Shown here: positions 44,762 through 64,000 of the stretch, piece after piece
Numbering within the stretch: the stretch's first letter is position 1
Layout: each line of letters starts with the position of its first letter
Virus record (IMG/VR): IMGVR_UViG_3300011114_001049
Span: 36,275 to 100,274 of that record
DNA: 64,000 nucleotides
Reading direction: 5' to 3' (one strand)
Source: a virus
Program-made: the position numbers and the translations under genes
Notes under the pieces: model-generated
The model's database searches: none
What the model was told of the DNA's origin: nothing
What the model saw: the letters and a program-made list of their open reading frames with translations, nothing else

Positions 44762-44764
44762 CTT

Positions 44765-48777: not shown

Positions 48778-48782
48778 AAGAA

Positions 48783-49370: not shown

Positions 49371-49371
49371 C

Positions 49372-50844: not shown

Positions 50845-51976
50845 CTTTTTTAATGTAGCTAGAAGCGTAAATGGATTTAGAAGAGGGTATGTAACTGATC
50901 CCTTTGACGAACCTACTTACCTAAGTTTTGGTATAGATTTTAGCTTTGACGGACTTGATAATTTAACTGTAAACTCTCTATGGGCCAGCCCACTATTCGC
51001 ACAAGGAAGCACGGCTAATCCAAATTCTGCAAGTAGTTACTTGGGGTCAATTGGTAGAAACGACATGGAAGATGCACTAGCTACATTCAAGGGATCGCTA
51101 GATTACATTTCTACGAAAACACCTTGGTACTTTCAAAGCATTGGAGGTTTGGATAAGATGTATAAGGCTGCAACTGACATGACTAGTGCTAAGAAATACG
51201 ATCAAATTCTAACGATTGAGACGCTAGAGGCAGTAGATTTACGGATAAGTCAGCTTGCAAACCTGTATAGAGCAGCGATATATGACAAAGAGGCAATGCT
51301 TGCCAGGGTTCCTGAAAACTTAAGATGGTTTACGATGGAAGTTTGGGTGGCAGAAACTAGAAATATGAGGTTTGAAATACCAGGACTAGCGGGTAATGCT
51401 GCAAACGCACTAGGTATAAACACAGCAGCAATAAACGGAGTTGCTAGTAAAATATCATCGTCGCTGAGCGGGCTAGGTCTAATGGATGACGCAAACAGTA
51501 CCATCAAACAGTTTGGATTCATGAAATTTAAGTGTAGACAATGTGAGTTTGATTTCAGTGGTAGCTTTGCAGGTGGACCACAACCAATGGAGATAGCTAC
51601 TAAAAGCACGCCTAACACTAGTACGTTTGATATAAAGGTAGGTTATTTTGAGGAAGAGAGTGGATATTACGATGGAACTAAACTCTATGATGATGCTACA
51701 AAGAACAGGGTGAATAATCCATGGAGACAGGCAAAAATCTTAGCTGCTGGTGCTGGTGTACTAGACTCAGTAGTAGGTCTACCGTTTGTAGGTAATGCGG
51801 CAGCTAAAGGCATAGAGGCCGTTTCAAATGGATTAAAGACAATAGGTGGTCTTACTAACAAGGTGACTGACCCTATTACAAACCTTCTCTATGCTCCAGT
51901 AAAAGACTTGGGTGATGTATATCCAGACAAACAAAAACCGTCTTCTCCGACTAATTTAGGAGACGTATACGATTAA
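50837..51976 (+). CDS. putative tail-tube-related/baseplate protein
   Basis: Operon context. Confidence 0.45.
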   Translation: MFNFFNVARSVNGFRRGYVTDPFDEPTYLSFGIDFSFDGLDNLTVNSLWASPLFAQGSTANPNSASSYLGSIGRNDMEDALATFKGSLDYISTKTPWYFQSIGGLDKMYKAATDMTSAKKYDQILTIETLEAVDLRISQLANLYRAAIYDKEAMLARVPENLRWFTMEVWVAETRNMRFEIPGLAGNAANALGINTAAINGVASKISSSLSGLGLMDDANSTIKQFGFMKFKCRQCEFDFSGSFAGGPQPMEIATKSTPNTSTFDIKVGYFEEESGYYDGTKLYDDATKNRVNNPWRQAKILAAGAGVLDSVVGLPFVGNAAAKGIEAVSNGLKTIGGLTNKVTDPITNLLYAPVKDLGDVYPDKQKPSSPTNLGDVYD

Positions 51977-52002
51977 AACTAAATTAAATCTAAAGATATA
52001 AT
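51976..52002 (+). promoter_or_regulatory. class-II promoter AAAC-N17-TATAAT
   Basis: 5 nt from the ATG at 52008. Confidence 0.55.
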
Positions 52003-52007
52003 AACAG

Positions 52008-52679
52008 ATGAGTAGAAATCACGATATAACGGCTAGAGACTTTGATGACCTCTTAGATAAACAATTCTTAGGAATAATTGTGGATATCGAAGATCCTAGA
52101 AAAGAAGGTAGGGCAAAGGTAAGAGTAGCAAGTATATATGACGAAATTCCAGTTGAAGATATACCTTGGGCATTTCCTAAAAATAGGGGAACTGTTTTTG
52201 GGAAAGCAGGTAAGGGCGGAGCTGTCTCTATACCTAAACTGAATTCAGTAGTTGCAGTTGTTTTTGATAACGGTAACCCATATTCACCTGAATATTTTGC
52301 TCTACAAGAATTAGCAGAAGACGTTAAGGGAGAACTAAACTCTGAGTATGCAGGAAGTCATATAGTTCTTTTCGATGGGGACCAGGAATTAAAGATCTGG
52401 TTTAGTGTAAGTAAAGGACTCACTCTTTCAGTAAAAGGAGCGTCAATTAATATAGACAAAGAAAATCAAATAACTATGAAGACTGATAATAAGGTAATTA
52501 TTGATTCTCCAAATATTGAATTAGGTAAATCATCATCAGCAGCAATTGCTGAATATTTGATTAAAGGTAAGACTTTTTTAAAGCTTTTTAATGCTCACAC
52601 TCACCCAGGCTCAGGAGCGCCACCTATTCCACAATTACTACCAGGTGTAGTACTTAGTAAAACAACAAAAACAAAGTAA
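52008..52679 (+). CDS. baseplate central spike, gp5/gpV OB-fold, without a lysozyme domain
   Basis: DPRKEGRAKVRV, PWA, IPKLNS.V.V.F, C-terminal HTH (His-x-His). Confidence 0.8.
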   Translation: MSRNHDITARDFDDLLDKQFLGIIVDIEDPRKEGRAKVRVASIYDEIPVEDIPWAFPKNRGTVFGKAGKGGAVSIPKLNSVVAVVFDNGNPYSPEYFALQELAEDVKGELNSEYAGSHIVLFDGDQELKIWFSVSKGLTLSVKGASINIDKENQITMKTDNKVIIDSPNIELGKSSSAAIAEYLIKGKTFLKLFNAHTHPGSGAPPIPQLLPGVVLSKTTKTK

Positions 52680-53263
52680 TGGAAGAACTAGCAGAACAAA
52701 TAAAAGGAATCAAAGAATTAGGTAACCTAGGTACAGACATACCTGGGTTAAATAAGGACAAGGTAATAGAAAACATAATTAAGAAGGATGAAAATTTAGG
52801 TGGATACCTAAAGATGATTGATGCTGATAAAGAGGAAAACATAGAGAGAGGAATGTCTAAAGAAGAGGCAGAAAAGAAGGCAAAAGAAGACGCAAAGGCT
52901 GTGCTTGATGGTGTAAAAAAGAGTCTTGAGCCAATGGTTGAAGAGGAAATAATCAAGATGAAACAGGAATATAAAATAGCAAAAGAAGCACTAGACTCTA
53001 TTCCAGCTGAAGTTACAGCAACTGTTGCAAACGCTGCATTACCAGCTGCATTACCGCCAGCTGTCCCTAATCCAGCATATACGCTAGGTGTGGCTGTGCA
53101 GACTAAGAAAAGCATTCTTAAAACTTTGAATGTCGTGCTGTCATCGTTGACTACTGTTCTAATGATAGCAACAAAATTAAAATTTAAGGTACCTGCACCT
53201 GTGATTGCACTAATCGCAGCAATAACGACTGTCACTAAATTACTTTCTGCAATCCCAGGTTAA
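52679..53263 (+). CDS. hypothetical protein with hydrophobic C-terminus
   Basis: TAATG coupling to the spike gene. Confidence 0.65.
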   Translation: MEELAEQIKGIKELGNLGTDIPGLNKDKVIENIIKKDENLGGYLKMIDADKEENIERGMSKEEAEKKAKEDAKAVLDGVKKSLEPMVEEEIIKMKQEYKIAKEALDSIPAEVTATVANAALPAALPPAVPNPAYTLGVAVQTKKSILKTLNVVLSSLTTVLMIATKLKFKVPAPVIALIAAITTVTKLLSAIPG

Positions 53264-53868
53264 TTTACGTAGAGATTTTCAATACCTTCATAACGATAGT
53301 ATTTATTGAGTAGCGAGTCGGGGTGTACTGAGACTATGCTGTTATTTTTAGTAGATAGATTTTTAAAGTTTTCTAACATTAGCTTAAACCTAGGATCGTA
53401 CCACGTTTCATCATGTTTATTTAAAGAATCATAATCTAGCTCTTTCCAAAAATGACTAGGATTTGCCCATTTTAAAGATACTCCCGCAACATAAAAAGTC
53501 GCTGTACGATAGTTGAGGTAGTGTGACTTAAATATGGAAATAGCAGTTGTTACTGAATCAGGTAGAGACTTTTTATTGGGTCGATCGTAGACTTTAATCC
53601 AGTCTGGTAAATTTTTTATTTTCTTTGACTTATTTAACCAGTCGCTACTAAAACACTGTGATTTTGAGACTAGTGCCTTGACTACCTCAGGCTTCTTTTC
53701 TAGTTCCTTGAGTATCTCAAAATCGTTAAAGAAAAAGAAATTAGGTATGTGCTTTAACCAGATTCGATTAACGCCAAGCGTGATCACACTGGGGTCAAGT
53801 CGACTGAAGTCAATTTGATTTATTTGAGGATCGTTACCTAGGACGAGTATTTTTAGCTCTTTAACCAT
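53260..53868 (-). CDS. Maf/DUF115-like putative nonulosonate (sialyl) transferase
   Basis: ILVLGN.P, LGVNRI, FFFND, GVSL...HFW; in an operon with neuA/neuB. Confidence 0.5.
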   Translation of the reverse strand: MVKELKILVLGNDPQINQIDFSRLDPSVITLGVNRIWLKHIPNFFFFNDFEILKELEKKPEVVKALVSKSQCFSSDWLNKSKKIKNLPDWIKVYDRPNKKSLPDSVTTAISIFKSHYLNYRTATFYVAGVSLKWANPSHFWKELDYDSLNKHDETWYDPRFKLMLENFKNLSTKNNSIVSVHPDSLLNKYYRYEGIENLYVN

Positions 53869-54152
53869 TCTCTAGCATTTATTGCCTTATCGTCTATAAA
53901 AACATCGTATGCAGGCTTACCGAACCTAAGCTCGTGGTATTTAACGCCATACTCCTCTAGCTGTAATTTAGTAAGTTGAGAAAGGTCTCTGCCAGTAACA
54001 GTTCCTCTAGCCGTCCACAAAACAATATGGTGACCTTCTTCGTATAGTGAGTTCACCTTTGCAATTGCTTCTGGAATTGCGATAGCTGTGCAGTAATCTG
54101 TCTTTACTATTAGTTCAAGTATAGTATCATCGATATCAATGAAGTATTTCAT
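53853..54152 (-). CDS. small HAD phosphatase
   Basis: DIDDT, WTARG, GKP, FIDDK. Confidence 0.8.
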   Translation of the reverse strand: MKYFIDIDDTILELIVKTDYCTAIAIPEAIAKVNSLYEEGHHIVLWTARGTVTGRDLSQLTKLQLEEYGVKYHELRFGKPAYDVFIDDKAINAREWLKS

Positions 54153-54441
54153 CTAGGTTTATTTTTTTTGACTCTTTATATTCTTTCCAAGAAGTTGCGT
54201 CCATTAGGTCAGGAAAAAGTTCACCATCGTTACATGACTCCTTTACGTAAAGTTTGCCAGGAACCGAACACCCACACTGTTTGCAATAACCTAGCTTAAT
54301 ACAGTCTTCTCTGCATACCCAACTACGATAGACTACTTGTTCCTTTTCATGATGAGGTAACAGGTCAATATAATCACCAAACATTTTAGCGTTTCCTTCG
54401 ATAAATTGAAGCACATTTTTGATTGTTATTTTCCTAGACAT
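54136..54441 (-). CDS. Cys-rich hypothetical protein
   Basis: C..DC...CKQCGC. Confidence 0.65.
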   Translation of the reverse strand: MSRKITIKNVLQFIEGNAKMFGDYIDLLPHHEKEQVVYRSWVCREDCIKLGYCKQCGCSVPGKLYVKESCNDGELFPDLMDATSWKEYKESKKINLDEILH

Positions 54442-54452
54442 ACTGGTTTTGC

Positions 54453-55340
54453 TTATTTTCCTCTTAGTGTTTTTCTCTTTTGCATCTCAGAAGGTAAAAC
54501 TTCTCTAGCGCCATATCCTCCACGAGATGATTCGACGTCACGTATGCTTTTTACCAATTTAATTAGACCTTGAGGCTCAACTGAGGCCATCTGATCGCTA
54601 CCCCAAAGGGTTCTGTCTAGAGTTATGTGGCGTTCTATCCAAGTTGCGCCTATTACTGAGGCTGCGACAGTTGTTGTGAGTCCAAACTCATGACCAGAAT
54701 AGCCAACTTCGAACTTTCTATCGAATTCACTAGAGATATGTTTCAAGTAAGTAATATAGTCAAGGTTTAATTCATGATTAGGCGAAGGATAGGTGGAATT
54801 AGTGTGAAAAACTACGCCAGGTTGCGCTGCGACTATTGCTGAGTCTATTTCTGATTGTTTACTCATCCCAGTAGAAATAAGTACTTCATCACAACACTCA
54901 TTAGCATAGGTAAGAAGGTCGAGATCAGTTATTAGGGCAGAAGGTATCTTTACCATGACACCACGTTTTCCGTTGGGCAGTTGTGTGTGATACTTTCGCA
55001 TGAAATCAACAGAATCCTTGTCCCAGACCGATGCAAACCAGCTGATTCCTTTCTCTCTACAATAATCATCAATCTCATCGTATTCCTTTTCCCAAAGCTC
55101 AATATCTTTTTTGTACTGTAAGTAAGTAGTCTCTTCTTTTCTCCAAGGAACTAACTTAGGTTTACTCTTCTCTGCTTCAGGTACACAGGAGTCAGGGTTT
55201 CTTTTTTGGAACTTTACATAGCTACAGCCAGCAATAACTGCAACATCTATTAGCCGCTTGACATTACCTATAAAAAGACTAGTATCTTTACCGTATGCAT
55301 AATTTAGTCCAATCTCACCGATTATCTTTACTTTTTCCAT
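54453..55340 (-). CDS. neuB: N-acetylneuraminate/nonulosonate synthase family (no C-terminal AFP domain)
   Basis: EIGLN, KFQKR, KIPSA, STGM, STYP, GYSGHE, ERHITLDR, GSDQ. Confidence 0.9.
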   Translation of the reverse strand: MEKVKIIGEIGLNYAYGKDTSLFIGNVKRLIDVAVIAGCSYVKFQKRNPDSCVPEAEKSKPKLVPWRKEETTYLQYKKDIELWEKEYDEIDDYCREKGISWFASVWDKDSVDFMRKYHTQLPNGKRGVMVKIPSALITDLDLLTYANECCDEVLISTGMSKQSEIDSAIVAAQPGVVFHTNSTYPSPNHELNLDYITYLKHISSEFDRKFEVGYSGHEFGLTTTVAASVIGATWIERHITLDRTLWGSDQMASVEPQGLIKLVKSIRDVESSRGGYGAREVLPSEMQKRKTLRGK

Positions 55341-56158
55341 TCGTCGTATGGTATTTTAAATATATTTTCGCAAGGTCTAAGTTTGATATTGGCTAGGGCA
55401 GGAAAGATGATCTTGTTGAAGTTTAGTTCAGGATTTGCGTGACTAACGTTATTTATGTTATTGATAAGAGTACTTGCGCTTGATCTCTTGAATAGTGCCC
55501 GAGTGGTCGCTTCATACTTTGTTTTAAGATCTTTTCTTACAGTTTCCATGTGATGCATGGTGATGATATTATTGTCAAACTCATGAGTAGTGGTTGGATT
55601 AGATGATATTCCTCTAGTAGGATCACACTTTACGAAAAACCGATTAGTCATCTTGGAAGACTCGTTGATTTTACAGATAAAAGGTACTCGAGAAGGATCA
55701 TATCCTCGATGTAAGGTAGGAAGTTTTACATAATTTATGAATCGAACAGCAGTCAAACTATAATCTTTTTTCTCGATCTCTGATTTGGCAATCGCGAACT
55801 GTTCTTCTACATAAAACTCATCAACATCCATGCAAAGATAATGAGTGCAGCCTTTTTTAAGAGCACTCTTTAGACCAAAATATCTCTTTTCCATTTCATA
55901 TGACTTTGCTCTAGCTATTGAATTAGCTATACTGTCTTTTAATGGAGTAAAGTTAGAAAACTTACTTAACTCGTCGACTAATCCTCTAACTTTTAGAGAG
56001 TTCAGAATAATTAGGTCCTCGTTTTTTATCTTGTGGCCAAACCATGATTCAGTCTGATAGACTACTTGTACATAGTCTACATGTTTTCTTATCTGTTTGA
56101 TTGAGTGTTCTAGGAGTTCTATTCCATCAAACACAATATAGGATACTCCAAGTTTCAT
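55328..56158 (-). CDS. GT-A fold glycosyltransferase
   Basis: MDVDEFY DxD motif. Confidence 0.65.
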   Translation of the reverse strand: MKLGVSYIVFDGIELLEHSIKQIRKHVDYVQVVYQTESWFGHKIKNEDLIILNSLKVRGLVDELSKFSNFTPLKDSIANSIARAKSYEMEKRYFGLKSALKKGCTHYLCMDVDEFYVEEQFAIAKSEIEKKDYSLTAVRFINYVKLPTLHRGYDPSRVPFICKINESSKMTNRFFVKCDPTRGISSNPTTTHEFDNNIITMHHMETVRKDLKTKYEATTRALFKRSSASTLINNINNVSHANPELNFNKIIFPALANIKLRPCENIFKIPYDEWKK

Positions 56159-56976
56159 TAGCTTATAATATTAGTTTTATCAGGCCTCATCTCGTTTCTT
56201 TCTAATACAGTTGCCTCCAAGACCTTAAATGGAGTTTCATATTTTTTCATATACTTAAGTAGTGCACTTGTGTCCTTTGGGAAACATGAACCTCCATAAC
56301 TTAGGAGTCCATCTGGGCCGGGCACTTGCGTGTGCATTGGATTTATCCAATTGTTTTCTAACATAAGGTCCCTAACTGATTCGTAGTTACATCCCATCTT
56401 TTCACAAAGTAAATAAATCTCATTAAAGAACTGAACTTTAACTGAATAGAAAGAATTAGCAAAGATCTTCATGCTTTCAGACTCAGTAGAAGTGCAGACA
56501 GATATTTTAGCATCTGGATAAAACTTAGAATAAAAATCAACTGCTTTTTTTAACTGTCCTCCTCCACATGAAGGTCCAGTCCCTAGCACAATATGAGACT
56601 GATTATTAAAATCTACAAGAGCGGTACGCTCGGTCAAAAACTCAGGATTGTGTATTATAGAAAGACCTGAAAATACCCTAGAAAGATTAACAGTAGTCTC
56701 AGGCTCAACTGTGCTCTTTAGCACAACTAAACCCGTAAAACTTTCAATTGCTAAAAAAGTTAAAGTCTCGACGATTGCTGATTTGTCGTATTCTGCCGTA
56801 CTTTCTTGATAAGGAGTCGGTAGAGATAAGAAGATTATATCTGAATCTAGACACGACTCTAGAGAACCTATTTTTTTATATTTGTCATAACCAATTAGGT
56901 CAGTCACTCCTTTCTGTTTAAAGCTTTCAAACATCGCAGAGCCTACGAAGCCAAGTCCAATTACTGCAACTTTCAT
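56158..56976 (-). CDS. UDP-glucose/GDP-mannose dehydrogenase family (short, lacks C-terminal domain)
   Basis: GLGFVG, LPTP, KSTV, NPEFL, GGSCFPKD. Confidence 0.85.
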   Translation of the reverse strand: MKVAVIGLGFVGSAMFESFKQKGVTDLIGYDKYKKIGSLESCLDSDIIFLSLPTPYQESTAEYDKSAIVETLTFLAIESFTGLVVLKSTVEPETTVNLSRVFSGLSIIHNPEFLTERTALVDFNNQSHIVLGTGPSCGGGQLKKAVDFYSKFYPDAKISVCTSTESESMKIFANSFYSVKVQFFNEIYLLCEKMGCNYESVRDLMLENNWINPMHTQVPGPDGLLSYGGSCFPKDTSALLKYMKKYETPFKVLEATVLERNEMRPDKTNIIS

Positions 56977-57003
56977 TTTATTGTTTTGTTATTTTTAAAG
57001 ATC

Positions 57004-57687
57004 TTAAAAACTATTGTAAAAGTTACCGGACCTTTTCATCTCTATATGCCTTTTATTAAATGCATTAACATAATCTTTTCTCTCTTTACCACCAATTGGT
57101 ATTTTTCTAGTTAAATTATTTTCATGTAAATATGACTTAATGAGTATTGAATTTACTTGAGCTATTCCATTAGGATAAGCAAGTCTAATTCTATTTTTAT
57201 ATTCAGTATCACAGCCAAATCTAGTACTATCATAATAACCTAAGGTTTTGAAGACTGCTCTATCTATGATTAAAACTGACTCGTTTGTCTGGGGATTGGA
57301 AGGTTTATTTGTTCCATTAAGATGATTGACTCTAACAAACCTACAACCGACTGCAACTGTTCCGTTTTTATTAAAGTAGTTAAGTTGACTTTTAAACCGG
57401 TTTGGGTAAGAAACATCGTCTGCACCATGTATTAAGTAATGAGTCCAAGTAGGATCAGCTTCTGCGTGTTTTAGCGCAGTATTTATGGAATAATAGGTTC
57501 CCATATTTTTACTGTTTGTTAGTAATTCTACTCCCTTAAACATAGCTATTTTTCTTTTGCTAAAATCTTTGGATGCGTCATCTACTACGATTACTCTAGA
57601 ATCAACGTTTTGAGAAAGTATAGAAGTCAAACACTCTTCAATAAACTTATAAGCATTGTACATTGGGACTATTACTAAAACTTTCAT
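57004..57687 (-). CDS. glycosyltransferase family 2
   Basis: IVPMYN, VDDAS, GADD. Confidence 0.85.
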   Translation of the reverse strand: MKVLVIVPMYNAYKFIEECLTSILSQNVDSRVIVVDDASKDFSKRKIAMFKGVELLTNSKNMGTYYSINTALKHAEADPTWTHYLIHGADDVSYPNRFKSQLNYFNKNGTVAVGCRFVRVNHLNGTNKPSNPQTNESVLIIDRAVFKTLGYYDSTRFGCDTEYKNRIRLAYPNGIAQVNSILIKSYLHENNLTRKIPIGGKERKDYVNAFNKRHIEMKRSGNFYNSF

Positions 57688-58316
57688 AGCCTTATCATTT
57701 CAATTAGGAAATCAGCATTGTCTCGATTATTTACATATGAAAACTTTTTTATTGAAACTATTTTACAAAGACCAGAATACCTTTGTTTTATTTGAGACTT
57801 AGCAGTATTTGTATTTTTTGAAAGAAATCTGACGTGTCCTTCTGAATCTTGATTAGGTAGCGTTGCTAAAATTACTGAACCTTTTTTTATTTTACTCAAT
57901 ACACCTAAGTCATCAGTAATGTGCTCTAAAAACTCAGTAGTGACTACTAAATCATAGTCTACTTGAGAATAATCATAGCTAGTAGCATCAGCAACGATAA
58001 AGGATGCAGGCAGATTTAGTTTATTAGCAAAGTCAATTGCAACAGAACTAAAATCAATACCTATATAGTTTAGTTGGGGTAGAATATTTGAAGATGCATC
58101 TGCGTTAGTTATTTCACTTAATAAACAGTCTGCAAATTGACCAGGGCCACAGCCTATGTCTAATATGTTAATAGCTCCCAGTTCCTTTATCCTAGCCGCT
58201 ATTATTTTCCAAACAGGGTACCATGGAGTCTTATCATATTTTAAAAAATACATGTATTCACTGCCTCCAGTTTTAAATACTTCATTATACCAATTATTAT
58301 CTAGTTCAGTTCCCAT
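57684..58316 (-). CDS. class I SAM-dependent methyltransferase
   Basis: LDIGCGPG, GIDFS, EFLEH. Confidence 0.9.
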   Translation of the reverse strand: MGTELDNNWYNEVFKTGGSEYMYFLKYDKTPWYPVWKIIAARIKELGAINILDIGCGPGQFADCLLSEITNADASSNILPQLNYIGIDFSSVAIDFANKLNLPASFIVADATSYDYSQVDYDLVVTTEFLEHITDDLGVLSKIKKGSVILATLPNQDSEGHVRFLSKNTNTAKSQIKQRYSGLCKIVSIKKFSYVNNRDNADFLIEMIRL

Positions 58317-58323
58317 ATTATAT

Positions 58324-58947
58324 TTATATTTTGTATCGAATTACTTCAAAAACCTCAGCATAACGTATCCCGTTTTGTGCTCCACGAACAGTTGCAAGAG
58401 ATTGAATAAAATTGTTTTGAAAGTATATTCTATTTTTTTGAGTTTCGTATTTTGAAAGGGCAGTTATCTTATTTTGAACGTCTTGTTCTAAAAGATCGTA
58501 ATAAATTTGATTCTTAAAGCTAGTGTTGTTCCAAATAAGCTCATATGAAAGCACTGAACAGTTATTCTTAAAACACCTAACTGCTTCGTCAGCGATAGTT
58601 TTATGATCTTGATGGTAATCATCAACTGATGGAATAAAAACAAGTTTTGGTTCTAATTTTTTCTTTAAGACTATCATGTCATCTAGGATGCTCTGCCTAG
58701 CATAATTAAATACTCTTACTTGATAATCATAGAATAAAATGTCTTCTTCTAGAACACCTAATGATGTTAAAGACTCAATACATTCAGTCTTTAATGTATC
58801 TGGTGCTAGACCCTTAGGTAAAGACTCTTTACACATAGAGAAGACAGCAACTCTGACTTTATTTCCTTCTCTTACTAGTCTTGAAATAGTAGCACCACAG
58901 CCTAGTTCTGCATCATCAGTATGTGGTGAAAGTACTAATATACTCAT
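58324..58947 (-). CDS. PIG-L/LmbE family deacetylase
   Basis: SPHTDDAELG, HQDH. Confidence 0.9.
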   Translation of the reverse strand: MSILVLSPHTDDAELGCGATISRLVREGNKVRVAVFSMCKESLPKGLAPDTLKTECIESLTSLGVLEEDILFYDYQVRVFNYARQSILDDMIVLKKKLEPKLVFIPSVDDYHQDHKTIADEAVRCFKNNCSVLSYELIWNNTSFKNQIYYDLLEQDVQNKITALSKYETQKNRIYFQNNFIQSLATVRGAQNGIRYAEVFEVIRYKI

Positions 58948-58954
58948 CTTATCA

Positions 58955-60709
58955 TTATTTTTTAACTAGACCAGAGTCTATCCAAACTTTTTTCCAGCAC
59001 CAGAAACCTAGTGCTGCACTCCTAAGGTATACTAAGTCTCTACCTGACTGTTCTGTTATACATGAAATTGTTAAATAGCCGTCTTCAGATAGTTCAGAAA
59101 CAGCACAGTCTTTTAGTGAATCTATTTGTGTTAGATATGTGTCTATCAAACTAAACCCAATCTTTTCACGGTTCCAGTGGTGTTGAGCTACTCCTCTATC
59201 ATTTAACATTTTCTTCAAAAAGTGTTTTCTTCCAAATCGACTGCTTATATGTTGATTCTCAGGTAAACTTAAAGCCACTGAAACTAATTCATGGTCTAGG
59301 AAAGGTGCTCTAACCTCTAAGGAATTTGCCATACTTGAAAAATCAAGAGTAGAATTCAGATCGCCCTTTACATAGGTCATTAATTCTAACCATCGATATT
59401 TTGAAGTCTCAGGAAAATCACTAGAGAGCTCAGAGAGTATTGGAGAAATTAAGTCAAAAACAGCGGATTCAGTTCTCTCATCAAGTAGCCCAGGAACATT
59501 AAAGTTACTAGGGTGTCTAAATATGTTGAATACTTGATCTCTTTCAGAAAAGGACGGTGCATCAATGTTGAGTCTAGTTGCGGCTTTGCGCTTATCAAAG
59601 AAACTTTTTGGGATGTTTGGGGTAGGTATTCTAGTGTATCCGAAAAAGAGCTCGTCTGCACCATTTGCACTCAGTGCAACCTTGTATTTTTTACTGACTT
59701 CTTTGCTTGTGATATATGGTATAAAACCAGACAGTGTTGCTTCTCCGGAAAAATCAGCATAGTGTGTTAAACATGCAAGTATATCAAAATCTTGAGGAAT
59801 GACTAATGAAAAGTCCATCTTAAAAAGCTTAGCGATATCTCGAGCATGACTCTCTTCTGGTGAAGTTAAGTGGACTGCATCTATTTTTTTAATGATAGCT
59901 GCAACTAGACTTGAGTCAACTCCTCCACTTAAGAATAGAGTTATTGGAACGTCTGACATTGTTTTACTTAATATCGCTTTTTCAATAGAATCCTCTACTT
60001 CTTGTGCGGTGATTCTTTGTTTAAAACACGGTGACCAGTATTTTTTGATTTCAATAGAATCACTAGAACTGGATAGCACACTCGCAGAATCAAGTCTTTT
60101 TATTCCATTGAATAGAGTTAAGTTAGTGAATATGCCGCCCAACAAAAAGTACTGCCAGACTGCTTCTAGATCTAATTTCCATTCAATTTGAGGTAATGCC
60201 TTTACAATAGCACCTGGATTAGATGAAAAATAAAGATTATCATCGTTATCAATATAGTAAAAAAGAGGCTTTTCTCCCATTCTATCTCTAGCTAAATAAA
60301 AATCACCAGTACCCTTATCATATAAACAGAAAGCAAATATTCCATTGATTAATTTAAGAGTTTCTTCAACTCCTCTTGTGACCAAAGATTTAAGCAGGAC
60401 TTCAGTATCGGAAGACCCATCAAAAGTCATTCCGTCTGCTAATAATGTCGACCTTAACTCAGAATGATTGTATATCTCTCCATTAAATACTAATAAGTGA
60501 TTCAAGTATTCCATTGGCTGATTTCCAGATTCACTAAGGTCTATTATAGAAAGACGATTATGAGCAAGCCCAAATCTGTCACCGCTAACTTCACAACTAA
60601 AGTCAGGTCCCCTTAACTCTTGCGACTCTTTCATGATTCGCAGTGAACTTGCATGAGCTTCGTTAAAGACGCTATTTGAATTAATTAATATTCCGCTTAT
60701 TCCACACAT
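58955..60709 (-). CDS. asnB: asparagine synthase-like glutamine amidotransferase
   Basis: MCGI, RGPD, HNRLSIID, NGEIYN, LSGGVDS, GADELF, EVRAPFLD. Confidence 0.9.
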   Translation of the reverse strand: MCGISGILINSNSVFNEAHASSLRIMKESQELRGPDFSCEVSGDRFGLAHNRLSIIDLSESGNQPMEYLNHLLVFNGEIYNHSELRSTLLADGMTFDGSSDTEVLLKSLVTRGVEETLKLINGIFAFCLYDKGTGDFYLARDRMGEKPLFYYIDNDDNLYFSSNPGAIVKALPQIEWKLDLEAVWQYFLLGGIFTNLTLFNGIKRLDSASVLSSSSDSIEIKKYWSPCFKQRITAQEVEDSIEKAILSKTMSDVPITLFLSGGVDSSLVAAIIKKIDAVHLTSPEESHARDIAKLFKMDFSLVIPQDFDILACLTHYADFSGEATLSGFIPYITSKEVSKKYKVALSANGADELFFGYTRIPTPNIPKSFFDKRKAATRLNIDAPSFSERDQVFNIFRHPSNFNVPGLLDERTESAVFDLISPILSELSSDFPETSKYRWLELMTYVKGDLNSTLDFSSMANSLEVRAPFLDHELVSVALSLPENQHISSRFGRKHFLKKMLNDRGVAQHHWNREKIGFSLIDTYLTQIDSLKDCAVSELSEDGYLTISCITEQSGRDLVYLRSAALGFWCWKKVWIDSGLVKK

Positions 60710-61563
60710 AAATCTCTTAATTTTTTGGCAGGTACTCCAGCAACTAAAGTAAAATCGTCGACACTCTTAAGCACGACCGATCCGATACCTGTCATTGAAT
60801 CAGAACCGATAGTACAACTGTTTATTATTGAAGTTGATGGGGCAATCCAACACCTTTCTCCAATACTAACACTGCCTGCAATCATTGAATTAGCAATAAC
60901 TAGTGAGTGATTACCTAGCTTTACTCCATGCGCAATATGAACCAAATTATCAATTTTACAATTTTCACCAATTATTGTATTACCTAAGACTGCACGATCT
61001 ATACAATTATTATTTCCTATTTCAACTTTTCTTTCAATTACTACTCCACCGATATGAGGAACAAGTTCATACTCTCCATTTTCATCTAATTCATAACCAA
61101 AACCAACACCGCCGATTGTATTGTTTGAACCTATACTAACATCGTCACTGATTATAGTTCCTTTATGAATAACGTTATTATGACCGATTCTTACTCGATC
61201 TCCTATCTTTACGTCGTCATCAATGAAGTTACCCTGTCCTATACAACTAGCAGTATGCGTTTGATGATCTTCATAAAAGAACTTTCTAACTACATCCATA
61301 AATGCTTTCCTAGGTCGATCACAAAGTATGATTGCCCCATTAAAAGAATCTAATTCAATTATTTGTGGAGAAATGACTATTCCTGTCCTAACTGATTTAA
61401 TTTTATCTACGTTTTTGTCATTCACCCAAAAAATAAGAAATGGGACACTATTATTTTCACATAAATTTGAAGGTTTTTCAATAGTAGAATCAAGAGTCGC
61501 TCCAAAGAGTTTAAATTGAGTTTCCGAACCTAAAAAATTTAATATTTCACGTAAGGTAGTCAT
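60697..61563 (-). CDS. LpxD-like hexapeptide-repeat acyltransferase
   Basis: Left-handed beta-helix repeats, GFGY, IDNLVHIAH, GVPAK. Confidence 0.85.
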   Translation of the reverse strand: MTTLREILNFLGSETQFKLFGATLDSTIEKPSNLCENNSVPFLIFWVNDKNVDKIKSVRTGIVISPQIIELDSFNGAIILCDRPRKAFMDVVRKFFYEDHQTHTASCIGQGNFIDDDVKIGDRVRIGHNNVIHKGTIISDDVSIGSNNTIGGVGFGYELDENGEYELVPHIGGVVIERKVEIGNNNCIDRAVLGNTIIGENCKIDNLVHIAHGVKLGNHSLVIANSMIAGSVSIGERCWIAPSTSIINSCTIGSDSMTGIGSVVLKSVDDFTLVAGVPAKKLRDLCVE

Positions 61564-63283
61564 CTATGTTAGTTATTTTTAAACTATTAATTAATTCTGC
61601 CTTTTTCAATAATTCAATTTTTTTATGAGTTATTCTACTAGAAGCAGCAAGTATTTGTTTTGTTTGGTTTATAACTTCCCAAGAACCTTTAATGCTTAAT
61701 ATAAAACTGTCTAACGAGACTAATTTCATACTGTTTCCATGTTTTTTAACTAAGTCATATCCAAAATCGTCTAGGTGAATAGGTCTAAGTGTTTTAAAAA
61801 TCTGCCAATTTACTTTATCTAAAAAATTCTTAGAAAACATCTTACCTCCTCCTAAAAAGATAGGCACTTCAGGTTTGTATTGTAGAAAATAAAGATTCTT
61901 ATCGAGGTCATATATGTACCATGAACGATTTCCAACTAAATCAAACCCATTTCTACTAGAACCAAAGCCTTCATCTATACTAGAGTAACATTCAGAAAAA
62001 TAGTTTAATGAGAGTAAGTCGTCTGATCCAAGTATCATCAAACCTTTAACATTTAAACGCTTAGCGTAAGTGACGCCAGCTTGCCATTTTCCACCAATTG
62101 GATAGTTTTGATGAATTGTAAAAAACACATTATCGTATTTCTTTTTTAATTCTTTACAAAATTGTGCATCAGCAGTATTAGATATAACTAAGACTATTGC
62201 AGGTAATATTGTCTGTTTACATAACGTTTCAACATTTAATTCAACTATACGGTGTCTTCCTTTAAAAGCAATTACACAAGCAGTATCGTATCCATTTACT
62301 GGTTGAGTTTCAGTAAATCCATTAGCGATCAAATTGTCGGTTTCTGCTATGCTGGCTATAAGTTTTGACTTATTTAACTGATAGTTACTAGATTCGCGAG
62401 AAGACTCCATAAGCAGTCTATTTACAGCGTCCATTTTTCTAGTAAAGTCAGCAGTTTGTGTCTTCTCGCGACCAGAGTCGACTATTTTTAAATAATTGTA
62501 AACGAAATTAGAACGAATTTGCGTTGCTTGCCGATTGTACTCATTACTTTTATTCAACCATATTCTGTTTATCTTTGAATTTGAGCGGTTTGGTGAAAGA
62601 ACGATTGGGTTTTTTCTAGCTGTCTCCTGGGAGAGAAGATCATTAAAATATATGCAATTTGATGTTTTTAATTTATGTTGAAGCTGAATAAACTTACTGT
62701 CTAAAAACTCTTTTGAACTAAATAGTTTTTCAGATATTTGTTTACATTGGCTGGTTGACTTTAGCATATTACATATAAACGAATGCGTCTGACCCAGTCC
62801 TAATGAGTTAACGTTTTCTATGCTATATTTAAGAGATGGTATATCAACATAATATCGTTTAAGATAAAAAAGCTCAACTGTTTCTGAAAAAATAAAGTCA
62901 CCTTCTGTTTTAAAGATTGAAGATACATCATTTAGAAAGAGACAAAAGTTAGAAAAATAAAAGACGTTTTCTTTAAATGAGTCAAGTGCAGCAATCTTAC
63001 TTAGATCCTGAATTGAAGCCATTGGATATGTATGTAACTTGTGAAATTTAGCTTCAACTAACTTAAAAAGTCTTGAAGTTTCAATGTTAATAAAAGTTAT
63101 GTCAGGATAAATTGATAAAAGTATTGCTTTATTTACATTAGATAAAGGATTTTGTGAGTTGATTAAAAAGTACAATTGACCCCTAAACCATTTGTTATTT
63201 TCTAAAAAGCTACATGTGCTAGTTATAGAGTATTTAAAATACTTATCGCTTGCTTCTGTTACTATTACTAAATCAGTTGTCAT
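61547..63283 (-). CDS. two-domain glycosyltransferase-like protein
   Basis: C-terminal GT-A (LGSDD); N-terminal GT8-like region that appears degenerate. Confidence 0.55.
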   Translation of the reverse strand: MTTDLVIVTEASDKYFKYSITSTCSFLENNKWFRGQLYFLINSQNPLSNVNKAILLSIYPDITFINIETSRLFKLVEAKFHKLHTYPMASIQDLSKIAALDSFKENVFYFSNFCLFLNDVSSIFKTEGDFIFSETVELFYLKRYYVDIPSLKYSIENVNSLGLGQTHSFICNMLKSTSQCKQISEKLFSSKEFLDSKFIQLQHKLKTSNCIYFNDLLSQETARKNPIVLSPNRSNSKINRIWLNKSNEYNRQATQIRSNFVYNYLKIVDSGREKTQTADFTRKMDAVNRLLMESSRESSNYQLNKSKLIASIAETDNLIANGFTETQPVNGYDTACVIAFKGRHRIVELNVETLCKQTILPAIVLVISNTADAQFCKELKKKYDNVFFTIHQNYPIGGKWQAGVTYAKRLNVKGLMILGSDDLLSLNYFSECYSSIDEGFGSSRNGFDLVGNRSWYIYDLDKNLYFLQYKPEVPIFLGGGKMFSKNFLDKVNWQIFKTLRPIHLDDFGYDLVKKHGNSMKLVSLDSFILSIKGSWEVINQTKQILAASSRITHKKIELLKKAELINSLKITNIDDYLT

Positions 63284-63911
63284 TAATCTTTAAGAAGTCT
63301 TTTTCATAATCTACATCAATCTTATCTTCGATCTCCCAAAAAAGAGTCTCGCTATCATAGAGATTGTTATTTAATTTATTTATGTTCTTGGGCCTAACCA
63401 ATACGATGAAGTGAGATAGCTCGAAGCATTCATGATAGTCTTGTCGACGATATAGATCATGTTTAATTATTTGTTTGCCACGGTGACCAAAATCATACAT
63501 TAATAGAAAAGGGCTTGTTTTAGCAGGCTTCTTACAGAGAAGCGAGCTTACTGGCATTGCTGGTTCCATCATAATATAGAAGGCAACTGCATCTATTAAG
63601 TCGACCCATCGTCTTTCAGGATAAGTAAGATATAATACTGCGACTAACTCGTCTTCAGAAACATCCATTAAACCCAAGGCATGTTCGACTACTGCCTTCA
63701 TTGAAGTATTGTCTTGTGCTAGTTCAATAGGTCGACTTATACAGTTAAAACCAGCAGTAGCCGCCATCTCAAGTATCTTAGAGTCATCGCTAGTAACGTA
63801 AACATTTTCTCTAATCTCAATTGGGATTGATTCAGCAGTATACTTAAAAAGCGCTCTATTCTTGTGTGGAAACCCCTTAGATCCTTCCCTAGCAGGTATG
63901 ATTATTTTCAT
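63273..63911 (-). CDS. neuA: acylneuraminate cytidylyltransferase (CMP-nonulosonate synthetase)
   Basis: IIIPAREGSKG..KN, VTSDD, RP.ELA.D, IDVD. Confidence 0.85.
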   Translation of the reverse strand: MKIIIPAREGSKGFPHKNRALFKYTAESIPIEIRENVYVTSDDSKILEMAATAGFNCISRPIELAQDNTSMKAVVEHALGLMDVSEDELVAVLYLTYPERRWVDLIDAVAFYIMMEPAMPVSSLLCKKPAKTSPFLLMYDFGHRGKQIIKHDLYRRQDYHECFELSHFIVLVRPKNINKLNNNLYDSETLFWEIEDKIDVDYEKDFLKINDN

Positions 63912-64000
63912 ATTTCATTAAATTTTTCTAGAGAAATCTTTGGAATCTCTAACTTACTAATTTCACTTAAATTGTAGAGAGAAGTTCCTCTTTTAGCTAG
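63908..64000 (-). CDS. 3' end of an upstream gene of the glycan operon (partial)
   Basis: Open frame ...YNLSEISKLEIPKISLEKFNEI* with ATGA overlap. Confidence 0.5.
   Translation of the reverse strand, partial: LAKRGTSLYNLSEISKLEIPKISLEKFNEI

What the first reader, a model, noticed from the sequence alone, without database searches (positions are those of the whole stretch)
53260..64000. Phage-encoded, apparently complete nonulosonic acid (sialic-acid/KDN-like) pathway within an 11 kb glycosylation operon
Seen: one co-oriented operon with a NeuB-family synthase, small HAD phosphatase, NeuA cytidylyltransferase, a Maf/DUF115-like candidate transferase, three more glycosyltransferases, a UDP-sugar dehydrogenase, methyltransferase, deacetylase, amidotransferase and acyltransferase. 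It abuts the baseplate operon. Known: synthase + HAD phosphatase + CMP-synthetase is the 9-phosphate route used for KDN in Bacteroides thetaiotaomicron, and Maf proteins transfer nonulosonates onto flagellin. Inference: the phage glycosylates (sialylates) its own virion proteins or remodels the host surface. No flippase or polymerase is visible in the window, which favours cytoplasmic protein glycosylation.
Basis: partly seen in the sequence, partly recalled or inferred. Interest (0 to 1): 0.8.

Follow-up and report, generated by a model that had tools for sequence, protein, structure and literature searches.

The report
Phage sialic-acid-like sugar glycosylation operon
A large uncultured freshwater phage carries a tightly packed operon of at least 14 genes that most likely makes, activates and attaches a sialic-acid-like sugar together with other decorated sugars; this recurs in many uncultured phages but has not been shown by experiment for any.

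Summary
Window 53260-64000 (minus strand) is one operon of 13 complete genes plus the tail of a 14th, cut by the contig end. The window is the last 64 kb of a 100-kb IMG/VR phage fragment.

The conserved core is:
- a NeuB-family synthase without the SAF domain;
- a 99-aa capless HAD phosphatase;
- a CMP-sugar synthetase;
- a 202-aa protein whose confident model has the GT42 (Cst-I/II) / Maf fold, and whose homologues are often fused to cytidylyltransferases.

The truncated first gene is a paralogue of that transferase.

NeuB and the HAD co-occur in 72 of 80 related viral loci. Synthetase-HAD fusions sit next to NeuB in both phages and bacteria. This supports a sugar-phosphate (KDN/Neu5Ac-9-P-like) route.

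A 6.3-kb central cassette is swapped for unrelated sugar genes in phages that are 86-92% identical in the flanks. It holds GT2, methyltransferase, PIG-L, AsnB, an LpxD-like acyltransferase and a GT8-like/GT2 protein.

All 13 proteins look soluble. The junction with the baseplate genes is bridged in an independent metagenome, so the contig is not a chimera.

The sugar's identity and the acceptor (virion or host surface) remain unknown. This scan has already noted similar modules on other DNA, in at least 23 genomes. I found no paper that characterises one.

The parts
63908..64000 (-). 3' end (30 codons plus stop) of a first operon gene that runs off the contig. It is a second sialyltransferase-fold (MptE/GT42-like) paralogue, about 217 aa in relatives.
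   Evidence: The fragment is 60-70% identical to the C-termini of the 217-aa genes just upstream of the CMP-synthetase in L008 and L012. That family (A6) is homologous to the 202-aa family (A1): hhalign probability 97.2%, E 3.8e-11 over 180 columns. One member has a weak PF01973 hit.
63273..63911 (-). CMP-sugar (nonulosonate-type) synthetase, 212 aa
   Evidence: PF02348 27.2 bits (cut-off 22.6); PseF TIGR03584 43.5 bits, below its cut-off. Aligns over residues 4-206 to N. meningitidis CMP-NeuAc synthetase 1eyr, E 1e-5, with the N-terminal PAR..SKG...KN motif. Its cluster is present in 54 of 81 loci.
61547..63283 (-). Two-domain glycosyltransferase, 578 aa: N-terminal GT8-like domain and C-terminal GT2 (GT-A) domain
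   Evidence: No Pfam hit of its own. The profile of homologues hits the chondroitin synthase GT2 domain at 1.4e-12 and heparosan synthase. The N-domain matches regions that Pfam calls GT8 in L034 and L055. The ESM Atlas lead is GT8+GT2.
60697..61563 (-). Left-handed beta-helix acyltransferase, LpxD-like C-terminal half, 288 aa
   Evidence: Hexapep 74 bits. LpxD subfamily NF002060 184.5 bits, below cut-off 207. NeuD/PglB family 87.7 bits.
58955..60709 (-). Glutamine-dependent amidotransferase of the asparagine synthase B type, 584 aa; probable sugar-carboxylate amidotransferase
   Evidence: GATase_6/7 and Asn_synthase domains. TIGR01536 319.6 bits, above cut-off 267. The sugar role is inferred from the operon context.
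58324..58947 (-). PIG-L/LmbE-family de-N-acetylase, 207 aa
   Evidence: PF02585 60.1 bits.
57684..58316 (-). SAM-dependent methyltransferase, 210 aa
   Evidence: Methyltransf_25/31/11 hits.
57004..57687 (-). GT2 glycosyltransferase, 227 aa. It is the last gene of the swappable central cassette, window 57009-63268.
   Evidence: PF00535 82 bits. DNA homology to L003, L002 and L007 stops at 57008 and, for L007, resumes at 63269.
56158..56976 (-). Short nucleotide-sugar-dehydrogenase-like protein, 272 aa, without the C-terminal UDP-binding domain
   Evidence: PF03721 and PF00984 only; TIGR03026 positions 75-299 of 413. The GxGxxG motif and the GGSCFPKD catalytic-Cys motif are kept. The 272-aa form is conserved in 15 loci.
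55328..56158 (-). GT-A fold glycosyltransferase, 276 aa, with a D111-x-D113 motif
   Evidence: No Pfam or PDB sequence hit. AF2 model pLDDT 85.7. Foldseek: COLGALT1, SunS, TarS, SpsA, E about 1e-6. VIA: Z 12-13 to GT2 enzymes. Clusters with the GT2 at 57004.
54453..55340 (-). NeuB-family PEP-condensing synthase, 295 aa, without the SAF/antifreeze-like domain; carries a 6-residue insert seen only in phage sequences
   Evidence: PF03102 197 bits. TIGR03569 167.8 and TIGR03586 116.6 bits, both far below their cut-offs. Best solved relative is 6ncs, 290 aa. 57 invariant residues in 25 phage homologues, including the GYSGHE, ERH and GSDQ motifs. Viral clade SH-aLRT 100; insert clade 98.
54136..54441 (-). 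Conserved 101-aa Cys-rich protein of unknown function, between NeuB and the HAD
   Evidence: phrog_13610, unknown function, E 1.9e-18. Present in this position in 34-35 loci.
53853..54152 (-). Capless (C0) HAD phosphatase, 99 aa
   Evidence: All four HAD motifs are invariant or nearly so. The profile hits 9iqw 'capsule biosynthesis protein' at 7e-22 and 1xpj at 9e-11. Found with NeuB in 72 of 80 loci. Fused to a cytidylyltransferase in L040 and L095.
53260..53868 (-). Sialyltransferase-fold candidate transferase, 202 aa (GT42/Maf-like, with no Pfam family)
   Evidence: AF2 pLDDT 94.6. Foldseek: Cst-II and Cst-I, E 6e-6 to 7e-5. VIA: Maf 5mu5 Z 12.5 over 175 aa; Cst-I Z 11.7 over 171 aa. The only PDB profile hits are GT42 enzymes, at a weak E of 0.004-0.035. 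Homologues are fused to CTP_transf_3, GT29 or GT2 domains.
52008..53263 (+). Context: gp5-like baseplate spike (223 aa) and a 194-aa gene, convergent with the operon and overlapping its end by 4 nt
   Evidence: Phage_base_V and phrog_430/37871 baseplate hits. The same convergent arrangement is seen in about 35 related loci. The junction is bridged by contigs from an independent run.

Best explanation
This is a phage-borne, fully cytoplasmic glycan-building operon.

Its conserved core makes a CMP-activated sialic-acid-like (nonulosonic or closely related ulosonic) acid by a phosphate-dependent route:
1. The SAF-less NeuB condenses PEP with a phosphorylated host sugar. The simplest candidate is mannose-6-phosphate, which would give a KDN-type acid.
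2. The 99-aa HAD removes the phosphate.
3. The 212-aa synthetase makes the CMP-sugar.
4. Two paralogous small enzymes with the GT42/Maf fold transfer it: the 202-aa protein, and the truncated first gene.

Three GT-A proteins carrying four GT-A-type domains build the underlying oligosaccharide.

A swappable central cassette decorates its sugars, here by:
- de-N-acetylation (PIG-L) followed by re-acylation (LpxD-like enzyme);
- amidation of a carboxylate (AsnB);
- methylation.

Shown: gene content, folds, fusions, synteny and the cassette swap. Inferred: the substrates, the phosphate intermediate and the order of steps.

The acceptor is unknown. I lean, weakly, to phage virion proteins glycosylated in the cytoplasm.
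For: Catalytic genes intact:
- NeuB is matched over its full length and its catalytic motifs are invariant.
- The HAD motifs are invariant.
- The CMP-synthetase aligns over its full length to 1eyr.

Coupling of the core genes:
- NeuB and the HAD occur together in 72 of 80 viral loci.
- The synthetase cluster is in 54 of 81 loci and the 202-aa family in 37.
- Cytidylyltransferase-HAD fusions lie directly beside NeuB in phage L040 and in bacterial L095 and L101. A free-standing HAD lies upstream of NeuB in L113.
- The same synthase / phosphatase / CMP-synthetase logic is proven for KDN in B. thetaiotaomicron and Prymnesium (PMC6200933).

Transferase:
- Fold matches to Cst-I/II and Maf.
- All 7 weak PDB profile hits are GT42 enzymes.
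- Seven homologues are fused to cytidylyltransferases.
- In other loci the module pairs instead with GT29-like (102 bits) or MptE-like genes.

Precursor genes:
- No NeuC, DegT or SDR gene in the 100-kb record.
- None found either in the L008 and L012 operons, where only genes matching the window's were mapped and gaps remain unexamined.

Cellular location: no transmembrane segment in any of the 13 proteins.

Cassette swap: sharp breakpoints at 57008 and 63269 between phages that are 86-92% identical in the flanks. This fits an exposed glycan under diversifying selection.
Against: - No biochemical data exist for any member of this NeuB clade. It scores below the cut-offs of the NeuB and PseI equivalogs and lacks the SAF domain, so the product may not be a nine-carbon acid at all.
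- The HAD is not of the KdsC/BT1713 type.
- The transferase family lacks a clear equivalent of the Cst-II catalytic histidine in the weak sequence alignment.
- A shared fold with thiamin and HPPK pyrophosphokinases (Z 8-10) leaves a non-transferase activity possible.
- Bacterial relatives of this NeuB sit with a split transketolase, a class-III aminotransferase and an SDR. That hints at an amino-sugar substrate unlike mannose-6-phosphate.
- The record is only about 36% of the genome, so precursor genes may lie elsewhere.
- Nothing identifies the acceptor: no strongly Ser/Thr-rich structural protein was seen.
Confidence: 0.62

Rival explanations
1. The pathway is the same, but the target is the host envelope (LPS/LOS, capsule, S-layer or flagellin). 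During infection the phage recaps or rebuilds host surface glycans, to block superinfection, to stop progeny adsorbing to debris, or to mask receptors. It relies on host export machinery.
For: - The closest solved folds, Cst-I/II and the P. multocida enzyme, sialylate lipooligosaccharide, and Maf enzymes modify flagellin.
- LpxD-like, PIG-L, uronamide-type and O-antigen-like genes (WbqC, DegT, SDR in the alternative cassette) are typical of bacterial surface-polysaccharide loci.
- Serotype-like cassette swapping is the hallmark of O-antigen and capsule loci.
- From general knowledge, seroconverting phages are well known.
Against: - No initiating phosphoglycosyltransferase, flippase, polymerase or any membrane protein is present in the operon, and none was found among the mapped genes of relatives L008 and L012.
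- The phage looks like a large lytic myovirus related to huge phages. A 14-gene investment in host-surface change is less expected in such a phage.
Confidence: 0.3
2. The NeuB-family enzyme does not make a KDN/sialic-type nine-carbon acid. It makes a different ulosonic acid, for example an amino-substituted or higher/lower-carbon variant, from a substrate prepared by host enzymes or by phage genes outside the record.
For: - It scores below the equivalog cut-offs for NeuB and PseI.
- It forms a separate viral clade with a phage-only 6-residue insert next to the N-terminal active-site motif.
- There is no SAF domain.
- Bacterial relatives are embedded with transketolase, class-III aminotransferase and SDR genes.
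Against: - The phage loci of this clade lack the transketolase/aminotransferase set.
- The catalytic residues and the CMP-synthetase are of the ordinary nonulosonate type.
Confidence: 0.3
3. The block is host DNA joined to phage DNA by misassembly, or a contaminating cellular contig.
For: The genes are bacterial in type, and the block sits at a contig end.
Against: - G+C content is uniform across the window.
- The same operon converges on the same baseplate genes in about 35 other viral contigs.
- There is 92% DNA identity over 12.5 kb spanning the junction with L003.
- A contig from an independent freshwater study (X12, 52753-53481) and a 10-kb virome contig bridge position 53260.
- Phage NeuBs form their own clade, apart from 60 cellular ones.
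Confidence: 0.02
4. The sugars are attached to phage DNA (base hypermodification) rather than to protein or lipid.
For: - Large phages glycosylate DNA bases.
- Small 1xpj-like HAD phosphatases also occur in phage DNA-arabinosylation clusters (PMC13326640).
Against: - No CMP-ulosonic acid DNA modification is known.
- That paper mentions no NeuB or ulosonic acids.
- I did not search the record for a base-hydroxymethylase gene, so this is untested rather than excluded.
Confidence: 0.03

Closest known systems
KDN (2-keto-3-deoxy-D-glycero-D-galacto-nononic acid) pathway of Bacteroides thetaiotaomicron (BT1714 synthase, Q8A712 phosphatase, CMP-KDN synthetase) and Prymnesium parvum; also the animal Neu5Ac-9-P route (PMC6200933)
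   Same: A NeuB-family synthase, a dedicated HAD phosphatase and a CMP-synthetase are encoded together. No NeuC-type epimerase or Pse/Leg dehydratase/aminotransferase is found.
   Different: - The phosphatase is a 99-aa capless HAD whose solved relatives are 9iqw and 1xpj. No KdsC-type match was found.
- The synthase is a separate viral clade without the SAF domain and with a 6-residue insert.
- The substrate is untested.
- The genes are encoded by a phage.
Campylobacter jejuni Cst-I/Cst-II and Pasteurella multocida LOS sialyltransferases (CAZy GT42)
   Same: Same overall fold over nearly the whole 202-aa protein (Foldseek E 6e-6; VIA Z 11.7). The N-terminal G-N-x-P...ID...(V/T)xxxN motif layout is shared. 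A CMP-sugar donor is implied by fusions to cytidylyltransferases.
   Different: About 15% identity. The sequence profile reaches only E 0.004-0.035. It is shorter (202 vs about 260-290 aa). Its invariant residues (G11, N34, D49, H139, F140) do not clearly map onto the Cst-II catalytic His. No Pfam or CAZy family covers it.
Maf flagellin nonulosonic-acid glycosyltransferases (DUF115/MptE-like, structure 5mu5)
   Same: Best VIA match (Z 12.5, 175 residues) to the central catalytic domain. Maf enzymes are soluble and transfer Pse/Leg from CMP donors to a protein in the cytoplasm, as proposed here.
   Different: Maf proteins are about 600 aa, with extra N- and C-terminal domains. The phage protein is the bare central domain and has no PF01973 hit. 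Its paralogue family scores 16.7-23.8 bits against a cut-off of 34.6.
Virion glycosylation cassettes of mycobacteriophages (Freeman et al. 2023, Cell Host Microbe 31:1216, as cited in PMC12582341)
   Same: Phage-encoded glycosyltransferases that decorate the phage's own structural proteins inside the cell. This is the precedent for the virion-target reading.
   Different: As far as I know, those cassettes use ordinary glycosyltransferases and host nucleotide sugars. No nonulosonate synthesis or CMP-sugar module has been reported there.
Bacterial O-antigen and capsule loci with conserved flanks and a variable central region
   Same: Conserved flanking genes with a central cassette replaced wholesale between close relatives. 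Gene types are shared: GT2, LbH acyltransferase, AsnB-type amidotransferase, WbqC, DegT, SDR.
   Different: No Wzx/Wzy/Wzz, ABC transporter or initiating transferase. The locus sits in a phage, next to baseplate genes.

Membership tests
NeuB family (PF03102) PEP-condensing ulosonic acid synthases | Full-length TIM-barrel NeuB domain | tested here: met
   197 bits, profile positions 1-237 of 241.
NeuB family (PF03102) PEP-condensing ulosonic acid synthases | Conserved catalytic and metal-binding motifs (E in EIG; KFQ; two His in the GxSxH and ExH motifs; D in the GxD motif) | tested here: met
   These residues are invariant in 25 phage homologues and align to the same motifs in solved 6ncs and 1vli. 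The mapping onto N. meningitidis residue numbers is from memory only.
Neu5Ac synthase (TIGR03569) / pseudaminic acid synthase (TIGR03586) equivalogs | Score above the curated equivalog cut-off | tested here: not met
   167.8 vs 399.65 bits, and 116.6 vs 340.25 bits.
Neu5Ac synthase (TIGR03569) / pseudaminic acid synthase (TIGR03586) equivalogs | C-terminal SAF (antifreeze-like) domain | tested here: not met
   The protein ends about 20 residues after the barrel, at 295 aa. The matches stop at 276 of 329 and 262 of 327 profile positions. All 75 phage and 61 cellular relatives examined here are similarly short.
9-phosphate (KDN/Neu5Ac-9-P type) route | Synthase uses a 6-phosphorylated hexose | not testable with these tools
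   This needs an enzyme assay. A labelled phylogeny with BT1714 and NANS could not be built, because no reference sequences were obtainable.
9-phosphate (KDN/Neu5Ac-9-P type) route | Dedicated phosphatase genetically coupled to the synthase and the CMP-synthetase | tested here: met
   The HAD accompanies NeuB in 72 of 80 loci. Cytidylyltransferase-HAD fusions lie adjacent to NeuB in L040, L095 and L101.
9-phosphate (KDN/Neu5Ac-9-P type) route | Phosphatase of the KdsC / BT1713 C0 HAD type | tested here: inconclusive
   It is a capless HAD with all motifs. It has no Pfam hit, and its best solved relatives are 9iqw and 1xpj, not a KdsC entry.
CMP-nonulosonate synthetases (PF02348 CTP_transf_3) | Domain match above the cut-off and full-length similarity to a solved CMP-NeuAc synthetase | tested here: met
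   27.2 bits vs cut-off 22.6. 1eyr E 1e-5 over residues 4-206. The PseF equivalog cut-off is not reached: 43.5 vs 205.7 bits.
GT42 sialyltransferases (Cst-I/II) | Shared fold over the catalytic domain | tested here: met
   Foldseek probability 1.00, E 6e-6 to 7e-5. VIA Z 11.7, 171 residues aligned.
GT42 sialyltransferases (Cst-I/II) | Significant sequence membership and a conserved catalytic His | tested here: inconclusive
   Profile vs PDB E 0.004-0.035, with all 7 hits being GT42 enzymes. No Pfam hit. The family's invariant His139 does not clearly align with the Cst-II catalytic His, whose position I give from memory.
Maf / DUF115 (PF01973 MptE-like) nonulosonate protein glycosyltransferases | Pfam PF01973 match | tested here: not met
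   No hit for the 202-aa protein. The paralogue family scores 23.8 and 16.7 bits against a cut-off of 34.6.
Maf / DUF115 (PF01973 MptE-like) nonulosonate protein glycosyltransferases | Fold of the central catalytic domain; the multi-domain architecture of about 600 aa | tested here: inconclusive
   The central-domain fold is matched (5mu5 Z 12.5, residues 269-512). The flanking Maf domains are absent, since the protein is only 202 aa.
UDP-glucose/GDP-mannose dehydrogenase family | Three domains: NAD-binding, central with catalytic Cys, and C-terminal nucleotide-sugar binding (PF03720) | tested here: not met
   Only PF03721 and PF00984 are found, and the protein ends at profile position 299 of 413. 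The Rossmann motif and the catalytic Cys motif are present.

The most novel reading that the evidence does not exclude
A lineage of large freshwater phages sugar-coats its own particle. Soluble phage enzymes build an oligosaccharide on virion proteins in the cytoplasm. A previously unrecognised family of minimal sialyltransferase-fold enzymes caps it with a phage-made sialic-acid-like acid. The decorating cassette is exchanged between near-identical phages, giving phage 'serotypes'. This would be the first sialylated tailed phage and a new transferase family.
Probability: 0.3. Interest if true: 0.85.

Novelty: new variant of a known kind. Interest (0 to 1): 0.66.

Why it matters
Sialic-acid-like sugars are key surface signals in bacteria and animals. 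Their synthesis is regarded as a cellular trait.

A self-contained, widely distributed phage module would add a new layer to phage-host surface biology. The evidence for 'widely distributed' is:
- at least 80 viral contigs;
- thousands of metagenomic NeuB homologues;
- rivers and lakes sampled in 13 studies.

It would also supply three new enzyme types for glycoengineering:
- a SAF-less synthase clade;
- a 99-aa phosphatase;
- a minimal 200-aa sialyltransferase-fold family that no Pfam model matched here.

The cassette swap between near-identical phages suggests that the glycan is under diversifying selection. This can be tested directly in viromes.

Tried and rejected
- Megablast of the operon found nothing among isolated or deposited phages. 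tblastn of the 202-aa protein also found nothing. NeuB hits only two uncultured records plus one distant one. No cultured phage with the module was found.
- A phylogeny labelled with characterised enzymes (NeuB, PseI, LegI, BT1714, NANS) could not be made.
- The careful tree and the test_one_clade runs did not finish. Only the quick IQ-TREE result is used.
- A profile of the 276-aa protein found no solved relative by sequence. Its fold was needed to place it.
- Promoter-like and terminator-like sites in the operon are no more frequent than in shuffled sequence.
- A scan for Ser/Thr-rich structural proteins as possible acceptors gave nothing striking: at most 47% S+T in 40 residues, at 11707-12474.
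- Contigs from an RNA library (X15) cover parts of the NeuB, transferase and baseplate genes. This does not show transcription, because contigs were laid and DNA may be present in the library.
- The PHROG label 'phosphoheptose isomerase' for the HAD family does not fit the HAD motifs, so I did not adopt it.
- Literature searches found no paper that characterises a phage NeuB/HAD/CMP-synthetase module. A 2013 virome survey lists neuB as the most frequent amino-sugar gene in viromes (PMC3877843). A search for PDB code 9IQW found nothing.

Full report
**Setting.** The window is bases 36275-100274 of a 100,274-bp linear IMG/VR virus record that CheckV rates 36% complete. The finding therefore ends at a contig end, not only at a window end.

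The window is phage DNA. It carries a portal gene, a split family-B polymerase, a primase, a helicase, baseplate wedge and hub genes and a gp5-like spike. The portal's nearest relatives are uncultured huge phages and Lak phages, at 31-36% identity. G+C content is even across the window, at 0.30-0.40.

**Observation.** On the minus strand, 13 complete ORFs run from 63911 down to 53260. Their junctions range from a 17-nt overlap to a 27-nt gap. In transcription order the Pfam and NCBIfam results are:

| Coordinates | Size | Assignment |
|---|---|---|
| 63273-63911 | 212 aa | CTP_transf_3 cytidylyltransferase |
| 61547-63283 | 578 aa | no hit |
| 60697-61563 | 288 aa | hexapeptide acyltransferase with an LpxD-like C-terminal half |
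| 58955-60709 | 584 aa | AsnB-type amidotransferase |
| 58324-58947 | 207 aa | PIG-L deacetylase |
| 57684-58316 | 210 aa | methyltransferase |
| 57004-57687 | 227 aa | GT2 |
| 56158-56976 | 272 aa | nucleotide-sugar dehydrogenase fragment |
| 55328-56158 | 276 aa | no hit |
| 54453-55340 | 295 aa | NeuB |
| 54136-54441 | 101 aa | no hit |
| 53853-54152 | 99 aa | no hit |
| 53260-53868 | 202 aa | no hit |

The last 93 nt of the contig encode 30 residues and the stop codon of a further upstream gene.

**The unannotated genes.**
- *99-aa protein.* It is a capless HAD. D6-x-D8-x-T10, T47, K79 and D88 are invariant in 26 homologues. The profile finds the solved 'capsule biosynthesis protein' 9iqw (7e-22) and 1xpj (9e-11).
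- *202-aa protein.* It gave an AlphaFold model with mean pLDDT 94.6.
  - Foldseek's best solved matches are the Campylobacter sialyltransferases Cst-II and Cst-I and a Pasteurella sialyltransferase (E 6e-6 to 4.5e-4, probability 1.00).
  - The Foldseek-independent search ranks the Maf glycosyltransferase 5mu5 first (Z 12.5, 175 residues) and Cst-I second (Z 11.7, 171 residues). These stand above MptE-type HPPK (10.3), thiamin pyrophosphokinases (about 8) and animal GT29 sialyltransferases (about 7.4).
  - A sequence profile of the family finds only GT42 enzymes in the PDB, but weakly (E 0.004-0.035).
  - The family is small: 73 representatives at E up to 0.001 among 1.8 billion proteins.
  - Seven of the ten longer homologues scanned carry an N-terminal cytidylyltransferase domain. 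One of these also has a GT29 sialyl-motif stretch, and another homologue carries a GT2 domain. That is a Rosetta-stone link to CMP-sugars.
- *276-aa protein.* It models well (pLDDT 85.7) as a GT-A glycosyltransferase with a DxD motif.
- *578-aa protein.* Its C-terminal half is GT2 (profile vs chondroitin synthase, 1.4e-12). Its N-terminal domain corresponds to regions that Pfam calls GT8 in relatives.
- *Truncated upstream gene.* It is 60-70% identical to the C-terminus of a 217-aa gene that precedes the CMP-synthetase in L008 and L012. That family is homologous to the 202-aa family (hhalign 97.2%, E 3.8e-11).

So two sialyltransferase-fold paralogues bracket the operon. In L012 the first of them is preceded by a divergent DnaJ gene. 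By analogy, the window is missing only about 190 codons of the operon.

**The dehydrogenase-like gene.** It keeps the N-terminal GxGxxG motif and the GGSCFPKD catalytic-cysteine motif. It ends where the C-terminal UDP-binding domain should begin. The 272-aa form is conserved in 15 loci, so it is not a pseudogene. Its activity is open.

**Relatives.**
- NeuB has thousands of metagenomic homologues of 285-305 aa and 80 loci in IMG/VR.
- Mapping the window's proteins onto those loci gives the HAD in 72, the CMP-synthetase in 38 by tblastn (its cluster is present in 54 of 81 loci), the 202-aa protein in 37-38 and the Cys-rich protein in 34-35, all co-oriented.
- In loci that lack the 202-aa gene, the neighbours include GT29 sialyltransferase-like genes (PF00777, 102 bits; 20 loci) and MptE-like genes. 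SDR dehydratase and DegT genes are also frequent.
- Phage L040 has a cytidylyltransferase-HAD fusion immediately after NeuB.
- The same short NeuB type is common in bacteria: more than 600 stretches, at 43-51% identity, in Chlorobiaceae, Hymenobacter, Ignavibacteriota, Streptosporangiaceae and others.
- In those bacteria it lies next to a cytidylyltransferase that is often fused to a HAD (L095, L101), or next to a free HAD (L113). It frequently also sits with a split transketolase, a class-III aminotransferase and an SDR.
- In a quick maximum-likelihood tree, the 75 phage sequences plus one MAG contig separate from 60 cellular ones on a branch with SH-aLRT 100.
- The window belongs to a subclade (support 98) marked by a 6-residue insert after the EIGxN motif. 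That insert occurs in 37 of 75 phage sequences and in none of 61 cellular ones. The tree is unrooted and the sampling was set by the search patterns.

**Cassette swap.**
- The window and L003 share 92% DNA identity over 12.5 kb (window 44456-57008). This stretch spans the baseplate genes and the NeuB-proximal half of the operon, and the similarity stops dead at 57008.
- With L007, similarity stops at the same place and resumes at 63269, inside the CMP-synthetase gene.
- Between these points the window has GT2, methyltransferase, PIG-L, AsnB, the LpxD-like enzyme and the 578-aa GT.
- L007 instead has a different GT8-like/GT2 protein, a rhamnosyltransferase-like gene, two GT2 genes, WbqC, an SDR, a hexapeptide acetyltransferase and DegT. 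L003's ORF pattern matches L007's over the part its record holds.
- L006, L008, L010 and L012 share the window's cassette type.
- The layout is therefore a conserved nonulosonate core in the flanks with an exchangeable sugar-decorating centre, as in O-antigen and capsule loci.

**Not a chimera.**
- The convergent junction with the baseplate genes recurs in about 35 loci.
- A 729-nt contig from an independent freshwater study, carrying 20 differences, bridges it. So does a 10-kb contig from a viral metagenome.
- The sequence occurs in river, lake and virome runs from 13 studies.

**Mechanism.**
- The tight coupling of synthase, phosphatase and CMP-synthetase, including gene fusions, matches the proven KDN route: Man-6-P + PEP to KDN-9-P, then KDN, then CMP-KDN (PMC6200933).
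- No NeuC-type epimerase, DegT aminotransferase or SDR gene is in the 100-kb record, and none appeared among the mapped genes of the L008 and L012 operons. A common host sugar phosphate is thus the most economical substrate.
- That is inference. This NeuB clade is below the equivalog cut-offs, lacks the SAF domain and has never been assayed. The bacterial contexts hint at amino-sugar chemistry.
- The accessory genes suggest three modifications: N-acyl exchange (PIG-L then an LpxD-like N-acyltransferase, the LpxC/LpxD logic), carboxylate amidation (AsnB type) and methylation. These roles are inferred from family membership only.
- None of the 13 proteins has a transmembrane segment.
- No initiating transferase, flippase or polymerase was seen in the operon or among the mapped genes of the relatives' operons.
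- This fits cytoplasmic glycosylation of a protein, as Maf does with flagellin. It does not exclude action on host lipid-linked glycans, as Cst enzymes do.

**Known or new.**
- A 2013 virome survey already listed neuB as the commonest amino-sugar gene in viromes (PMC3877843).
- Virion glycosylation by phage glycosyltransferases is documented for mycobacteriophages (Freeman et al. 2023, cited in PMC12582341).
- I found no paper that describes or tests a phage synthase-phosphatase-CMP-synthetase-sialyltransferase-fold module.
- This scan has noted similar modules on other DNA in at least 23 genomes, including the same short NeuB + HAD + Cst-II-like trio. Those notes are unchecked AI notes and I do not count them as evidence.

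**Verdict.** This is a real, intact, widely conserved phage glycosylation operon. It has a sialic-acid-like core and a swappable decorating cassette. The sugar's identity and the acceptor remain unproven.

Noticed in passing
window 54136-54441 (-): A 101-aa protein with six cysteines (phrog_13610, unknown function) sits between NeuB and the HAD in 34-35 related loci. Its constant position suggests a role in the core pathway, but nothing indicates what that role is.
   Followed up: partly
window 56158-56976 (-): A nucleotide-sugar-dehydrogenase-like protein with the Rossmann motif and the catalytic Cys intact, but without the C-terminal UDP-binding domain. It is conserved at 272 aa in 15 phage loci and is always followed, with overlapping stop and start codons, by the 276-aa GT-A protein. 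It may act on a non-nucleotide substrate or work together with its neighbour.
   Followed up: partly
window 57008 and 63269; L003, L007: Sharp recombination breakpoints delimit a 6.3-kb cassette. Phages 86-92% identical in the flanks carry an unrelated cassette of about 8 kb there (WbqC, SDR, DegT, hexapeptide acetyltransferase, three GTs).
   Followed up: yes
L087 36-6879, L115, L097, L113 (bacterial genome contigs): Bacterial relatives of the short NeuB lie in a conserved cluster with a cytidylyltransferase, a split transketolase, a class-III aminotransferase, an SDR and a HAD-like gene. The hosts include Ignavibacteriota, Hymenobacter and Chlorobiaceae. This looks like an uncharacterised CMP-ulosonic acid pathway in free-living bacteria.
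   Followed up: partly
L075 13531-14280; L046 2540-3931; L017 4951-6555: Related phage loci carry proteins with clear matches to the animal-type GT29 sialyltransferase family (PF00777, up to 102 bits). Some are fused to the GT8-like domain found in the window's 578-aa protein.
   Followed up: partly
L083 (contig JAYNVZ010000016.1, 24 kb, binned as a Gammaproteobacteria MAG): Its NeuB groups with the phage clade rather than with the 60 cellular sequences. The contig may be a phage or prophage fragment binned with a bacterium.
   Followed up: no
L164 (LR756508.1, 484-kb uncultured huge phage) 8001-8807 and 12074-12382: A published huge-phage genome carries the same short NeuB (46% identity) and the 99-aa HAD (49%) within 4 kb of each other. 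The record is unannotated.
   Followed up: partly
window 53853-54152 (-): Small HADs of the 1xpj type, the second-best solved relative of this phosphatase, are also listed in the DNA-arabinosylation clusters of phages RB69 and DLP3 (PMC13326640). Phages may use this mini-phosphatase family widely in sugar pathways.
   Followed up: no
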